Shown: positions 39,001 to 42,000 of the stretch, piece by piece
How the letters are laid out: each line of letters begins with the position of its first letter
How positions within the stretch are numbered: the stretch's first letter is position 1
IMG/VR virus record: IMGVR_UViG_2522572023_000008
Direction: 5' to 3' (one strand)
DNA length: 46,931 nt
Origin: a virus
Taxonomy: Duplodnaviria > Heunggongvirae > Uroviricota > Caudoviricetes
Program-made: the position numbers

Positions 39001-42000
39001 ACTCCGCCAAAATAGCCTAATACTTCTGATTTTTTCATGAGTCGCTCCATAAAACTGAACGCCAAAAGTTTAATAATCAAAACCAAAGAAAGTCAAGAAA
39101 CAAAACCATCTGTGTTTTAAAATCAAAACATGAACAAGCAAACAATATCTGAACGCATAACCCAACGTATGCATGCGCTAAACTTGAAAGGCAAAGACCT
39201 TGTCAATGCCACTGGCGCATCAAAAGGCTCCGTAAGTCAATGGATGAACGGTGGAGGAGCGCCGTCCTCGCGTTACATAAGTTCACTGGCAAAGATATTG
39301 AAAGTAAACGAAAATTGGCTTCTTAATGGAGGAGAGTTAAATACAGGTGATTCGCTTGATCTATCTTTACCGCCGATAAAAACGGTTCCGCTACTATCAC
39401 TTCAGCAGGCAGCAAGCTGGAGTGATTATATGAAAAATTCCTCAATAACCTCTTGTGTGCAGCTTGTCGGAGAAATCCCGGCCAATACCTTTGCTGTTGT
39501 TCTAGAGAGTGACAGTATGTCGACATCTGGTGGTGGAGTTTCCATCCCAAATGGTTCAACAGTTTTTGTTGATCCCGATCGAATCGTACAACCAGGAAAT
39601 ATTGTCCTTGCCTTACCCAAAGGGACCACAACGCCTGTCATTCGCAAACTGGAGATAGAAGGGCCGGATATTCTTTTAGTCCCCACGAATCCTCGCTACC
39701 CTTCAATTATGCTGGATGATCTATCTTGCATATTGGGAGTATGCTTTAAAATTCAACAAGATATTTAACCAACCTCATCTATTTGATTAACTGTATGCCA
39801 TCGTAGTGATGGCGTAACAGCTGCCTGCTTAAAATGTTTTGATAAAAAAACATTGACCTTAAATGTTCATTTTCCTAAACTTCATTCATTCCCTCACCCC
39901 GCCCCACAGAATGCAGGGCAATACTTCGAGTTACCAGGCAGTGGTCAGGGGTTAAGTAGCCAGCCCGAGGCGTAAGAACATGACGGCAGGGTTCAACTTT
40001 AATAACTATGCAGCAGGTTTTTGTTCCGCTACCCCGGCGTTAAGGGGAAATGAGGTCAGCATGGATACTATCGATCTTGGCAACAGCGAATCTCTGGTAT
40101 GTGGCGTGTTCCCCAACCAGGACGGTACGTTTACCGCGATGACGTATACCAAAAGTAAAACGTTTAAAACCGAAGCTGGCGCGCATCGCTGGTTAGCAAG
40201 AAACTCCGACTGATGAGGTTGACGATGGAATTTAAAGATTTACCTCCTTCAATCCAGGAGATTGCAGCACACACACTTCGTCATCGTCTGAACGAACTTG
40301 AATTGGAATCGGTAACGAAAAAAGACACTGATAATATGGCTCGTAATGTGCGCGATGCGTTTACCGGATTGTATTTCTGTGCGTCTATAAATAAACACGA
40401 CTCAGAGAGTGTGGCAAATAAAATTGCAGAAACGACAGCGCAAAACATCAATACGAAACCAACGGAAGAAGAAATTGATCAGTTTGCTCATGATGCTGGT
40501 TTAAAAAACAAGAAAGAAAAATCGCCATATGCGGGGAACATGTTTGTTTATGACAATCTCATCAGAATTCGTGGCGAAATTCCGGCGGAATACCTGGCAA
40601 GAGTCCATCAGGCATTGCTTAAAAATTTGGAAACAGAATTATTTGATGGCAACACTAACGGTTTCTTCATGGTATCAGGCCTTGATAAAGACTGGGATGC
40701 AGAAAAACGCTGGAATGTTGCTACATGGTTATTCAGTAACAGAGCCGCTGCACTGGAAGCTTCGGCATGTATTTGCGGCCTGTTCTTAACAGACCACAAA
40801 TATAATCTGGATGTGTACAGTTATATTTACGCTGAACACGGTCCACTCTGGATTGACTGGTAATTATAAGGAAACACCAGCAGGGCCGCGGCGACCAACA
40901 GAACGATTAAAATCAATAATGCCATTATAAAGGACATTATTTAATTTATCGTCGAATGCTGATTCTGTGAGCCTCAACTCTGAATGAGTTTTTAATAACC
41001 CTGATTGCCTGAGTTGATTTACCAGGCATTCAATCTGTTTTTCAATAAGCGGATTTCTTTTTTTGTTTGGCATTTTATCCTCCATTGAGGTTCTGGGTTA
41101 AAAATGGAGACCAACACGCTGTCACGTGTGGTCGTGCGCCGGACACGGATAAGAATCCGGTACTGACAGTTTACTGAAAGGATATTTCCCTGAAAAGTCA
41201 GGGCATAACGCGAAAGCGTACGGCGAAGCTCTTTCCCTTAGAAGGCTTGTCGTTAGATTTCTTCGAACGTGCGCTTCCGGTTGTGGCACTCCGCGAAATG
41301 GCGCGGCGGTAAGTATGGCGGGGTTATTCCTTCCCCGTTGAGGACACCGGGTTGTCAGGTTGACCATACGCTTAAGTGACAACCCCGCTGCAACGCCCTC
41401 TGTTATCAATTTTCTGGTGACGTTTGGCGGTATCAGTTTTACTCCGTGACTGCTCTGCCGCCCTTTTTAAAGTGAATTTTGTGATGTGGTGAATGCGGCT
41501 GAGCGCACGCGGAACAGTTAAAACCAAAAACAGTGTTATGGGTGGATTCTCTGTATCCGGCGTTAATTGTTAACTGGTTAACGTCACCTGGAGGCACCAG
41601 GCACCGCATCACAAAATTCATTGTTGAGGACGCGATAATGGAAACGTTATTACCAAACGTTAATACGTCTGAAGGTTGTTTTGATATTGGTGTTCTGCTC
41701 AGTAACCGGGAGTTTACTGAAGATGCCATTAATATGAGGAAATATGAGCCTTATCTGCTCAATGATAATTCCATACTTTCCCGAATTGCTCTTCTTGAAC
41801 TTGGTATTTTCGGAGAACGTCAATGACTTCAGCATTTGCACTGATGATGACGGTTTTTCTTATAACGGGTGAATCACAGAATGTGATTACCGGAATTTAT
41901 GCCAGTAAAGAATCCTGCCTCCAGGCAAGAGACGAGCAAAAAATTTCTGGTGAATGCCTCCCGGTAAAAAAAGTATCGCTGTACCTGAATAACGAAACAC

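What the first reader, a model, noticed from the sequence alone, without database searches (positions are those of the whole stretch)
41086..41826. DicF sRNA and DicB division inhibitor preceded by a 325-bp ORF-less, hairpin-dense leader
41411-41463 matches the 53-nt DicF sRNA as I recall it, and its terminator is followed by a DicB homologue. In K-12 Qin the segment before dicF encodes ydfC; here 41086-41410 has no intact plus-strand ORF but many short GC stems with purine-rich loops (for example ccctga-aaag-tcaggg at 41188-41203, ccgcg-aaatgg-cgcgg at 41291-41306, ggttgtca...tgacaacc at 41350-41384). It may be a decayed ydfC retained as processing substrate for RNase III/RNase E release of DicF, or an additional structured RNA. 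A lysogen carrying this prophage would encode FtsZ-targeting DicF and MinC-activating DicB.
Basis: partly seen in the sequence, partly recalled or inferred. Interest (0 to 1): 0.55.

Follow-up and report, generated by a model that had tools for sequence, protein, structure and literature searches.

The report
Structured RNA leader before DicF
The stretch holds the well-known prophage cell-division inhibitors DicF (a small RNA) and DicB, and the "empty" DNA in front of DicF is not a dead gene but a conserved folded RNA that includes a very common, so far unnamed four-armed RNA domain of unknown function.

Summary
DicF lies at 41411-41463: Rfam 76.7 bits, and 53/53 bases identical to K-12 b1574. 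dicB lies at 41638-41826: Pfam DicB 125.5 bits. No credible ORF lies between 41086 and 41410.

The "decayed ydfC" reading is wrong. K-12 Qin has the same ORF-less 340-nt spacer between ydfC and dicF, homologous to the window from 41133 onward. Here, unrelated genes fill the ydfC slot.

The "additional structured RNA" reading is right. 41280-41394 folds into a four-way junction, which I call A. It has clear covariation: 13 of 34 pairs change on both sides, and 0 of 500 shuffles reach this. It has no Rfam match and does not match HK022 put under my covariance model.

A occurs in 81% of complete E. coli genomes, always unannotated. It also occurs without DicF in other lambdoid phages and in the phage P1 ban-operon leader. 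In nearly every case an intrinsic terminator starts 11-36 nt downstream.

After DicF comes a STnc100-like domain (41473-41620). It is closed by a 19-bp helix that fits the published RNase III site.

DicF and DicB are already known. The A domain looks like an undescribed RNA family. Its function is inferred, not shown.

The parts
40864..41073 (-). 69-aa ORF on the opposite strand. Together with the 212-aa ORF at 40225-40863 (+) it occupies the slot that ydfB/ydfC hold in K-12. 41074-41132 is its start region and is not part of the conserved leader.
   Evidence: Annotated as hypothetical WP_001133037.1 in the identical prophage. GGAGG lies before the ATG. A promoter-like site lies at 41101-41072 on the minus strand. 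No Pfam match. Homology with K-12 starts only at 41133.
41133..41279 (+). Leader domain L: conserved untranslated RNA with hairpins. These include CCGGA...UCCGG at 41140-41161 and CCCUGA-AAAG-UCAGGG at 41188-41203. A predicted long-range helix (about 41209-41225 with 41262-41280) encloses a variable hairpin at 41226-41260.
   Evidence: 60-89% column identity over 101 DicF contexts, with mosaic breakpoints at 41121/41133/41185/41193. Consensus fold, but with little covariation (2 pairs). Present in K-12 as part of the ydfC-dicF spacer.
41280..41394 (+). Domain A, a four-way-junction RNA. P1 is 41280-41287/41387-41394. P2 is 41291-41295/41302-41306. P3 is 41307-41310/41346-41349, with a distal variable hairpin at 41317-41323/41333-41339. 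P4 is 41351-41357/41377-41383, with the near-invariant loop GGUUGACCAURCGCYUNAG.
   Evidence: MAFFT alignment of 50 sequences: 94.1% of cells paired, against 32-60% when partners are slid; 10 pairs changed on both sides, 0/500 shuffles reach this. Model-based alignment of 54 distinct sequences: 13 of 34 pairs changed on both sides. Many G-U pairs, so the structure exists only on the + strand. No Rfam hit at E<=10. One copy in the window, 162 bits with my model R1.
41395..41424 (+). Single-stranded A/U-rich linker. It contains the DicF 5' end (41410|41411, ..AUCAA|UUUUCUGG..) and the DicF 5' single-stranded region.
   Evidence: Position follows from identity with the K-12 dicF annotation. RNase E dependence is from the literature (PMC5069750, PMC9438474) and was not tested here.
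41411..41468 (+). DicF sRNA (41411-41463), with terminator hairpin 41425-41462 and T-run 41464-41468.
   Evidence: Rfam RF00039 76.7 bits. 53/53 identical to K-12.
41473..41620 (+). Domain B: a STnc100-like structured domain closed by a 19-bp helix (41473-41491 with 41602-41620). This helix is the probable RNase III site that gives the 72-nt DicF form, whose end falls at 41482.
   Evidence: Sub-threshold RF02076 match at 41461-41670: 38.7 bits, gathering 47, E 1.2e-6. 9 of 30 predicted pairs change on both sides. The long helix is in the MFE fold. The 72-nt RNase III product is from the literature (PMC5069750). The same domain precedes kil, tciA and dicB in other phages.
41638..41826 (+). dicB, 62 aa. 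GAGGA at 41626-41630 is its ribosome-binding site, just 3' of the B helix.
   Evidence: Pfam PF05358 125.5 bits. 63% identity to K-12 DicB. Annotated as dicB.
41823..42011 (+). DUF1482 protein in the position of K-12 ydfD. It overlaps the dicB stop codon.
   Evidence: Pfam PF07358 56.3 bits. Annotation.

Best explanation
From 41133 on, the ORF-less segment is the conserved untranslated body of the long transcript from which DicF is cut. It is the same RNA as the 340-nt ydfC-dicF spacer of K-12 Qin.

It is modular. Domain L (41133-41279) is followed by a 115-nt four-way junction, A (41280-41394). A is built into a hairpin that ends 17 nt before the DicF 5' end. Next come DicF (a single-stranded seed plus an intrinsic terminator) and a STnc100-like domain B closed by a 19-bp helix. 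The dicB ribosome-binding site follows.

A plus DicF has the same architecture as prophage sRNAs of the STnc100 class: a structured domain inside a closing helix, a short single-stranded linker, then a terminator.

Proposed working (inferred):
- After the early-left promoter is derepressed, L and A fold into closed domains.
- Only the A/U-rich linker is then left open to RNase E, which makes the DicF 5' end.
- Termination, or RNase III cleavage in the B helix, makes the two known 3' ends.
- Read-through transcripts carry dicB, the DUF1482 gene and the exonuclease gene.
- A stays on the upstream fragment as a stable structured 3' end.

The unpaired nucleotides of A are conserved from lambdoid phages to P1, where it is transcribed with its own terminator. 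For that reason A is most likely a second functional RNA carried on the same transcript, binding an unidentified partner, and not mere packing.
For: Shown:
- Homology to K-12 from 41133, where K-12 also has no ORF.
- 41272-41690 is 93-100% conserved over 101 unique DicF contexts, while the 3' half of dicB drops to 24-78%.
- Covariation in A and in B.
- A occurs without DicF in phage cdtI, Stx2c phages, Salmonella phage F1055 and the P1 ban leader.
- An intrinsic terminator starts 11-36 nt after A in 139 of 143 unique contexts, plus 2 more by eye.
- Different sRNA-like cassettes sit in the DicF slot.
- Relatives keep only the capped hairpin (L138, L300). Others carry a full-length STnc100-like element (43.4 bits) in the same GUUGUGGU/ACCACAAC helix.
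- The P4 loop is 16-18/19 identical and AAGUAU 5-6/6 identical, even where the P4 stem is only 6-8/14 identical.
- In P1 the element begins about 20-40 nt after the C1-controlled Pban promoters and is followed by a strong terminator. The terminated product would be a discrete RNA of about 180 nt.

From the literature:
- RNase E makes the 5' end; the 3' ends are the 53-nt terminated form and the 72-nt RNase III form (PMC5069750, PMC9438474).
- STnc100/PasD are Hfq-associated trans-acting sRNAs (bioRxiv 10.64898/2026.05.13.724894).
Against: - No expression, end-mapping or binding data were available for A. Its stability after cleavage and any partner are inferences.
- A alone does not fold better than shuffled sequence, z = 0.03.
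- Domain L shows almost no covariation.
- Most homologues were retrieved with exact-match patterns, one of which lies in the P4 loop. This inflates apparent loop invariance. Only P1, cdtI, Stx2c and F1055 were found independently by BLAST.
- A is dispensable in related phages that keep the same terminator and downstream genes. Whatever it does is accessory.
- No near-complement of the P4 loop exists elsewhere in the window.
Confidence: 0.45

Rival explanations
1. A is a cis-acting antiterminator RNA that works like HK022 put. Once transcribed, it modifies the elongating RNA polymerase, alone or with host Nus factors. The polymerase then reads through the terminator just downstream and through later ones. 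This would allow expression of dicB-exo-xis-int in N-less lambdoid phages, and of the tRNAs, tciABC and ban in P1.
For: - A sits 11-36 nt upstream of an intrinsic terminator in 141 of 143 contexts, whatever the terminator sequence.
- It lies in repressor-controlled early operons. Genes needed for lytic growth or excision lie beyond that terminator: Tritos has CI-ydfABC-A-DicF-dicB-ydfD-exo-xis-int with no N, and P1 has Pban-A-terminator-...-ban 2.6 kb away with no other annotated promoter.
- In cdtI, A lies about 290 nt after the likely pL and no N gene is present.
- All 112 A-positive loci with at least 2.5 kb of upstream sequence lack a detectable N.
- Sequence-specific conservation of unpaired bases fits a protein or RNAP contact.
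Against: - The A model does not hit HK022 putL or putR, and the fold differs: a four-way junction of 115 nt against two hairpins of about 70 nt.
- Only one copy is in the window; there is no putR-like partner in the rightward operon.
- 54 of 55 A-less loci with the same terminator and B domain also lack a detectable N, so the N test does not discriminate.
- A-less phages place the promoter, terminator, B and kil in the same order, which suggests the terminator is simply leaky.
- No conserved alternative pairing exists between A or the linker and the terminator arm (inspection of the sequences).
Confidence: 0.2
2. The leader is only a processing and stability scaffold. Its hairpins keep Rho and nucleases off a long untranslated RNA and position RNase E. 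A has no function beyond being a stable structure.
For: - The basal architecture (hairpin, linker, terminator) is kept even when the A core is absent.
- RNase E and RNase III processing of this transcript is established (PMC5069750, PMC9438474).
- The region as a whole is unusually stable, z = -4.4.
Against: - A pure scaffold would not keep a 19-nt loop and the AAGUAU junction nearly invariant between P1 and lambdoid phages while the stems change by compensation.
- In P1 the element is at the very start of the transcript and there is no DicF to process.
Confidence: 0.2
3. The leader is a decayed ydfC pseudogene, kept only as spacer.
For: None was found beyond the absence of an ORF.
Against: - K-12 has intact ydfC and the homologous ORF-less spacer downstream of it. 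The window's homology to K-12 starts after the ydfC stop.
- The segment is more conserved than dicB itself.
- It shows RNA-type covariation with G-U pairs.
Confidence: 0.01
4. The segment encodes a small protein missed by annotation. Candidates are the 36-aa GTG ORF at 41269-41379 (+) and the 95-aa TTG ORF at 41122-41409 (-). Some phage records annotate hypothetical proteins on the minus strand here.
For: - ORFs of these sizes exist.
- 37 of 50 homologues have an open minus-strand frame across A.
- cdtI orf40 and F1055_0036 overlap the element.
Against: - The frames are closed in P1, cdtI and several Qin-type copies.
- Indels in the P3 hairpin are of 1-4 nt.
- Substitutions are compensatory across helices rather than concentrated at third codon positions.
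- No Shine-Dalgarno sequence plus ATG is present.
- RefSeq never annotates a gene here among the hits listed, out of 4417 genomes carrying the element.
Confidence: 0.02

Closest known systems
dicBF operon of the K-12 Qin prophage (ydfABC - long untranslated region - dicF - dicB - ydfD)
   Same: - DicF is identical.
- The leader from 41133, DicF, domain B and the first half of dicB are homologous at 93-100%.
- The order is the same: leader, DicF, B, dicB, a small downstream gene (ydfD in K-12, a DUF1482 gene here), then exonuclease.
   Different: - ydfB/ydfC are replaced by a 212-aa ORF and an oppositely oriented 69-aa ORF.
- DicB is only 63% identical, diverging in its C-terminal half.
- The exonuclease is intact here (835 aa) but truncated by IS2 in K-12.
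'dicF-like region' of the phage P1 ban-operon leader (NC_005856 68791-68892)
   Same: - It contains domain A: 91 bits with my model, same four helices with compensatory changes, and a near-identical P4 loop.
- An intrinsic terminator follows.
   Different: - No DicF seed or DicF hairpin.
- A starts about 20-40 nt after the C1-controlled promoters.
- tRNA genes follow.
- The P1 record notes sequence similarity only and assigns no structure or function.
STnc100 (RF02076) / PasD prophage sRNAs
   Same: - Same architecture: structured domain in a closing helix, linker, terminator.
- Domain B is a sub-threshold relative (38.7 bits) sharing the CACCnGGAGGCACCnGGCACC hairpin with a compensatory change.
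- In some phages a full-length STnc100-like element (43.4 bits) sits in the very helix that holds A here.
   Different: - The A core has a different fold and no Rfam match.
- B is not followed by a terminator. It is followed by the ribosome-binding site of a division-inhibitor gene.
- Both B and the L270 element fall below the family's gathering score of 47.
HK022 putL / putR antiterminator RNAs
   Same: Structured RNA transcribed early from a repressor-controlled promoter, upstream of terminators, in phages with no N gene.
   Different: - Two stem-loops of about 70 nt, against a four-way junction of 115 nt.
- No cross-match with the covariance model.
- One copy per phage, against two.
RNase III processing hairpins in phage early transcripts (lambda N leader, T7 early region). 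Comparison from general knowledge.
   Same: The long perfect helix of domain B lies between an upstream RNA and the next gene's ribosome-binding site. The published RNase III-dependent 72-nt DicF end falls inside it.
   Different: B carries a conserved, covarying internal domain related to a trans-acting sRNA family, not just a simple hairpin.

Membership tests
DicF sRNA (Rfam RF00039) | Covariance-model score at or above the gathering score | tested here: met
   76.7 bits against 48, full-length match at 41412-41463.
DicF sRNA (Rfam RF00039) | Sequence of the experimentally defined 53-nt K-12 DicF, including the 5' single-stranded region used for target pairing | tested here: met
   41411-41463 is identical to b1574.
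DicF sRNA (Rfam RF00039) | Release from a longer transcript by RNase E (5' end) and by termination or RNase III (3' end); repression of ftsZ | not testable with these tools
   Known for K-12 from PMC5069750 and PMC9438474. Here it is only inferred, from sequence identity of DicF and its flanks.
DicB (Pfam PF05358) | Profile match above the curated cut-off over the full length | tested here: met
   125.5 bits against 27, residues 1-62 of 62. 63% identical to K-12 DicB.
DicB (Pfam PF05358) | MinC-dependent division inhibition | not testable with these tools
   The C-terminal half diverges from K-12, so function is not guaranteed.
ydfC pseudogene | Homology of 41086-41410 to the ydfC coding sequence | tested here: not met
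   The alignment with K-12 places ydfC upstream of the homologous block. There is no similarity across ydfC.
HK022-type put antiterminator RNA | Two adjacent stem-loops of about 70 nt with put-like sequence | tested here: not met
   Model R1 gives no match at putL or putR in the HK022 locus with filters off. The best L135 hits, at E 0.18 or worse, lie elsewhere.
HK022-type put antiterminator RNA | Suppression of downstream terminators, dependent on the RNAP beta' zinc-binding domain | not testable with these tools
   Only positional logic is available.
STnc100 (Rfam RF02076), for domain B | Covariance-model score at or above the gathering score | tested here: not met
   38.7 bits against 47, E 1.2e-6. 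A true STnc100 in the same window scores 143.9.
Lambda-type nut site (boxA + boxB with an N protein) | A 15-nt boxB hairpin with a GNRA-like pentaloop next to boxA, and an N gene in the operon | tested here: not met
   CCCUGA-AAAG-UCAGGG has a different stem and loop, and no boxA is adjacent. No N gene is annotated in the identical prophage. tblastn with five N proteins found none in A-positive loci.
Terminator/antiterminator riboswitch or attenuator | A conserved alternative pairing between the 3' part of the sensor and the 5' arm of the terminator | tested here: inconclusive
   Linkers and terminator arms differ among homologues, and no shared complementary segment was seen by inspection. 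This was not tested formally.
tRNA or tRNA-like element, for domain A | Cloverleaf recognised by a tRNA finder | tested here: not met
   ARAGORN finds nothing in 41000-41700. No Rfam tRNA hit there.

The most novel reading that the evidence does not exclude
Domain A is a new class of cis-acting RNA that alters the transcribing RNA polymerase, a functional analogue of HK022 put with an unrelated fold. It would license read-through of the DicF-slot terminator and of later terminators. It would thus be the missing antitermination device of the N-less Qin-type lambdoid phages and of the phage P1 ban operon, and it is present in four of five E. coli genomes.
Probability: 0.2. Interest if true: 0.8.

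Novelty: new variant of a known kind. Interest (0 to 1): 0.55.

Why it matters
DicF is one of the oldest known bacterial small RNAs, and it matters for cell division and for EHEC virulence. Yet the RNA it is cut from has been described only as a "long untranslated region".

That region contains a covarying four-way-junction RNA that:
- is absent from Rfam;
- is present in about 81% of complete E. coli genomes, often in several copies;
- is shared with phage P1-type plasmids of Escherichia, Salmonella, Klebsiella and Shigella.

This gives a concrete, testable object. If it controls read-through of the adjacent terminator, it would explain how N-less lambdoid phages and the P1 ban operon express genes beyond a strong early terminator. 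If it is a second regulatory RNA, most E. coli strains carry an unstudied prophage RNA next to DicF.

The analysis also shows that the DicF position is a slot that holds different sRNA cassettes in different phages. That is relevant to how prophage sRNAs diversify.

Tried and rejected
1. Decayed ydfC: rejected by the K-12 alignment.
2. Homology to HK022 put: the covariance model built from A was run with filters off on the HK022 immunity region and gave no hit at putL or putR.
3. Lambda-like nut site: the boxB-like hairpin does not fit, and no N gene is present.
4. Anticorrelation of A with N. All 112 A-positive loci lack N, but so do 54 of 55 A-negative loci, so the test is uninformative. My N panel was partly recalled from memory and may miss divergent N proteins.
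5. A second copy of A in the window, as a putR analogue: none.
6. A target for the invariant P4 loop inside the window: no complement with 3 or fewer mismatches. A genome-wide target search was not feasible with these tools.
7. tRNA-like element: ARAGORN was negative.
8. Protein-coding reading on either strand: no conserved frame.
9. Thermodynamic support for A alone: z = 0.03. Stability alone does not mark it out.
10. Covariation in domain L: only 2 pairs, so its fold remains a prediction.
11. Literature. Faubladier 1990 and 1994, Lobocka 2004 (P1 genome) and Melson & Kendall 2019 are not in the held library. What they say about the leader or about the P1 "dicF-like region" could not be checked. 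Searches for dicF plus ydfC, dicF plus antitermination, "dicF-like" and STnc100 found no description of the A element.
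Full report
**1. What is there**

Rfam finds DicF at 41412-41463 on the plus strand, at 76.7 bits against a gathering score of 48. The terminator hairpin is 41425-41462, followed by five T.

The DicB gene is 41638-41826. Pfam DicB scores 125.5 bits, and the protein is 63% identical to K-12 DicB, with the differences in the C-terminal half. A prophage in E. coli O145:H28 RM12761 is 100% identical over 40864-41830 and is annotated accordingly.

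Between 41086 and 41410 there are only ORFs of 36 aa or fewer on the plus strand and one 95-aa TTG ORF on the minus strand. None is conserved.

**2. The leader is not a dead ydfC**

In MG1655, ydfC ends at 1649041 and dicF starts at 1649382. K-12 therefore has its own 340-nt gap with nothing annotated in it.

The window aligns to K-12 from 41133 onward, which is downstream of the ydfC stop. The two are identical from about 41282 to 41605. In this prophage the place of ydfB/ydfC is taken by a 212-aa ORF (40225-40863, +) and a 69-aa ORF on the other strand (40864-41073). Neither has a Pfam match.

[quoted passage not shown] It states that RNase E makes the DicF 5' end, while termination or RNase III makes a 53-nt or a 72-nt 3' end (PMC5069750; PMC9438474).

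**3. Conservation**

I collected 101 distinct DicF contexts from viral contigs and genomes. All keep at least 41216-41620. Mosaic breakpoints fall at 41121, 41133, 41185 and 41193.

Column identity is 93-100% from 41272 to about 41690. That covers the 140 nt before DicF, DicF itself, and the 175 nt after it. By contrast, identity is 60-89% in 41133-41271 and only 24-78% in the second half of dicB. The non-coding flanks are thus better conserved than the protein.

**4. Domain A**

BLAST against phage genomes shows that 41280-41402 occurs on its own. It has 89% identity in phage cdtI and the Stx2c phages, 82% in Salmonella phage F1055, and 78% in phage P1. The P1 record calls the place a "dicF-like region"; it lies just after the C1-controlled Pban promoters.

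An alignment of 50 non-redundant copies supports a four-way junction:
- P1: 41280-41287 with 41387-41394.
- P2: 41291-41295 with 41302-41306.
- P3: 41307-41310 with 41346-41349, carrying a variable distal hairpin at 41317-41323/41333-41339.
- P4: 41351-41357 with 41377-41383, closing a nearly invariant loop.

On the MAFFT alignment, 94.1% of cells are paired, against 32-60% when the partners are slid. Ten pairs change on both sides; the shuffled mean is 4.0 and 0 of 500 shuffles reach ten. After realignment to a covariance model (54 distinct sequences), 13 of 34 pairs change on both sides, in 77 cells; the shuffled values are 7.1 and 21.7, and 0 of 500 shuffles reach the observed values. P4 alone has five covarying pairs out of seven. 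The many G-U pairs mean the structure exists only in plus-strand RNA.

The P4 loop (16-18 of 19) and the AAGUAU junction (5-6 of 6) stay the same even where the P4 stem is only 6-8 of 14 identical and the P3 hairpin is unalignable. Three of those comparisons (P1, cdtI, F1055) come from BLAST hits and are free of my pattern bias.

Other results for A:
- Rfam 15 has nothing here at E<=10, and nothing on the P1 or cdtI copies.
- The model finds one copy in the window and does not match HK022 putL or putR.
- ARAGORN finds no tRNA-like element.
- The segment alone is not more stable than shuffles, so the case rests on comparison.

**5. How common it is**

BLAST of 41275-41400 finds the element in 4417 of 5426 complete E. 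coli genomes, with a median of 2 and a maximum of 8 places per genome. No feature is annotated under any listed hit. It is also in 510 plasmid records, mostly non-mobilizable replicons of about 90-100 kb (the size of P1), in Escherichia, Salmonella, Klebsiella and Shigella.

**6. Context of A**

In 139 of 143 distinct contexts, an intrinsic terminator hairpin begins 11-36 nt after the 3' strand of P1. Two more have one by eye, and two have a different structured domain instead.

The terminator and the single-stranded stretch before it vary. DicF is one of several cassettes that occupy this slot. Others include a short form with the same UUUUCUGGUGA stretch, the GGCGGGUAUCC type, the GGCGGCAUCAG type and the cdtI GGCGGUACCAG type.

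Some relatives keep the flanks but lack the core of A, leaving a simple capped hairpin. Examples are GGUUGUG-AAUA-ACAAC in the Rac-like phage PhiR5_2 and GUUGUGGC-AAUCA-GCUACAAC in L300. In yet others the same GUUGUGGU/ACCACAAC helix holds a STnc100-like core instead. That whole element matches the full-length STnc100 model at 43.4 bits, just under the gathering score of 47.

So A plus DicF has the same build as STnc100-class prophage sRNAs: a structured domain in a closing helix, a linker, then a terminator. Those sRNAs are reported to be Hfq-associated trans-acting regulators (bioRxiv 10.64898/2026.05.13.724894).

**7. Domain B**

41461-41670 gives a sub-threshold STnc100 match at 38.7 bits, E 1.2e-6. 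A true STnc100 lies elsewhere in the window at 28164-28354.

B is closed by a 19-bp helix, 41473-41491 with 41602-41620. The 72-nt DicF end would fall at 41482, inside that helix. This fits the published RNase III product (PMC5069750). Nine of 30 predicted pairs in B change on both sides, including the CCUGG/CCAGG versus CCGGG/CCCGG hairpin.

The same domain lies directly before the start codon of other division-related genes. These are kil in Rac-like and Stx phages, and tciA in P1, P7 and D6. The dicB ribosome-binding site (41626-41630) lies just outside the helix.

**8. Domain L**

41133-41279 is conserved in Qin-type and Rac-type leaders, and several hairpins are predicted. Covariation is weak, with only 2 pairs, so its fold is only a prediction. 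Other phages have a different 5' half there.

**9. How it most likely works**

Shown: the leader is a conserved, modular, structured RNA that is part of the DicF-dicB transcript. A is a genuine RNA structure that can exist without DicF.

Inferred: L and A fold into closed domains and leave the A/U-rich linker (41395-41424) open for RNase E. Termination or RNase III in B sets the 3' end. Read-through transcripts express dicB and the genes beyond it.

For A itself I favour a functional RNA carried on the same transcript, with an unidentified partner (confidence about 0.45 for the whole account). My reasons are that its unpaired bases are conserved across very different phages, that in P1 it is transcribed as a unit with its own terminator, and that a trans-acting sRNA core can take its place.

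The main rival is a put-like antiterminator (0.2). In favour: A always sits just before a terminator, in early operons of phages with no N gene, and essential genes lie beyond that terminator. Against: A-less relatives have the same terminator and the same downstream genes and mostly no detectable N, and there is no similarity to put.

A pure scaffold role (0.2) does not explain the invariant loop. The pseudogene and small-protein readings are rejected.

**10. Novelty and verdict**

DicF, DicB, their operon, and the existence of a long untranslated region are already known. A lysogen carrying them is ordinary, since most E. coli do.

New, as far as the held literature and Rfam show, is the recognition of domain A as a widespread covarying RNA structure. 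Also new are the modular "slot" organisation around DicF and the relation of the post-DicF domain to STnc100.

Caveats:
- Most homologues were retrieved with exact sequence patterns.
- The key older papers could not be read.
- No expression data were available.

Noticed in passing
window 28102-28354: An AgvB anti-sRNA (28102-28163, +, 96.5 bits) lies tail to tail with a full STnc100 sRNA (28164-28354, -, 143.9 bits). Two tRNA genes lie at 29130-29379 (-). This looks like the late-region sRNA cluster typical of EHEC lambdoid prophages.
   Followed up: no
window 33675-33849 (-): A sok antitoxin RNA match at 113.5 bits, implying a hok/sok-type toxin-antitoxin locus inside the prophage.
   Followed up: no
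window 40864-41073 (-) and 40225-40863 (+): A 69-aa ORF with a strong GGAGG-ATG start and a promoter-like site lies antisense to the early-left operon. It abuts the stop codon of a 212-aa ORF, tail to tail. Neither has a Pfam family. Together they replace ydfB/ydfC of K-12.
   Followed up: partly
window 42104-44611 (+): An 835-aa exonuclease combines an Exonuc_VIII N-terminal region with a C-terminal Rv2179c-like 3'-5' exoribonuclease domain. The K-12 counterpart is truncated by IS2.
   Followed up: no
L176, L214, L200, L166, L201, L133 (regions downstream of domain A): The DicF position is a slot. Different phages carry different seed-plus-terminator cassettes there, between the conserved A and B domains. 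One is a shorter RNA that keeps the DicF 5' stretch UUUUCUGGUGA. These may be unrecognised DicF-like sRNAs with other targets.
   Followed up: partly
L136 (Salmonella phage F1055) about 2140-2215; L187 about 8110-8190: In these phages the terminator hairpin after A is much longer. Its loop contains AGGAGG followed by GUG/AUG and a short conserved ORF beginning MFCR. This could be a leader peptide inside the terminator.
   Followed up: no
L189 about 5205-5340; L210 about 5137-5270: These are the only two contexts where no terminator follows A. A is followed instead by another long-range helix domain (AAGAGCACUAC ... GUAGUGUUCUU) of unknown nature.
   Followed up: no
L004, L070, L185, L264, L274, L324 (5' ends of related leaders): Alternative 5' halves of the leader begin right after a promoter-like sequence. 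They contain what looks like an H-type pseudoknot (CCAC..GCCUG..GUGG..CAGGC), with compensatory variants such as GCCCGG/CCGGGC and CCCG/CGGG. The window's hairpin at 41188-41203 corresponds to its second stem. This was seen by eye only.
   Followed up: no
L132 (phage P1) 3842-3961; L139 (phage D6) 2001-2121: A STnc100-like domain B lies directly upstream of tciA in P1-type phages, as it lies upstream of dicB and kil in lambdoid phages. It is therefore a shared 5' leader of genes annotated as division- or tellurite-related.
   Followed up: partly
L133 (phage cdtI) 40-228 (-): Adjacent matches to C4 antisense RNA (68.4 bits) and isrK (60 bits) lie next to the immunity region.
   Followed up: no
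L133 (phage cdtI) 2680-2770: After the terminator that follows A, cdtI-type phages have a different long inverted repeat (ACAAAACAGAGAAGAGCA ... UGUUCUUCUCUGUUUUGU) in the position of domain B. This suggests an analogous RNase III-type helix with unrelated sequence.
   Followed up: no
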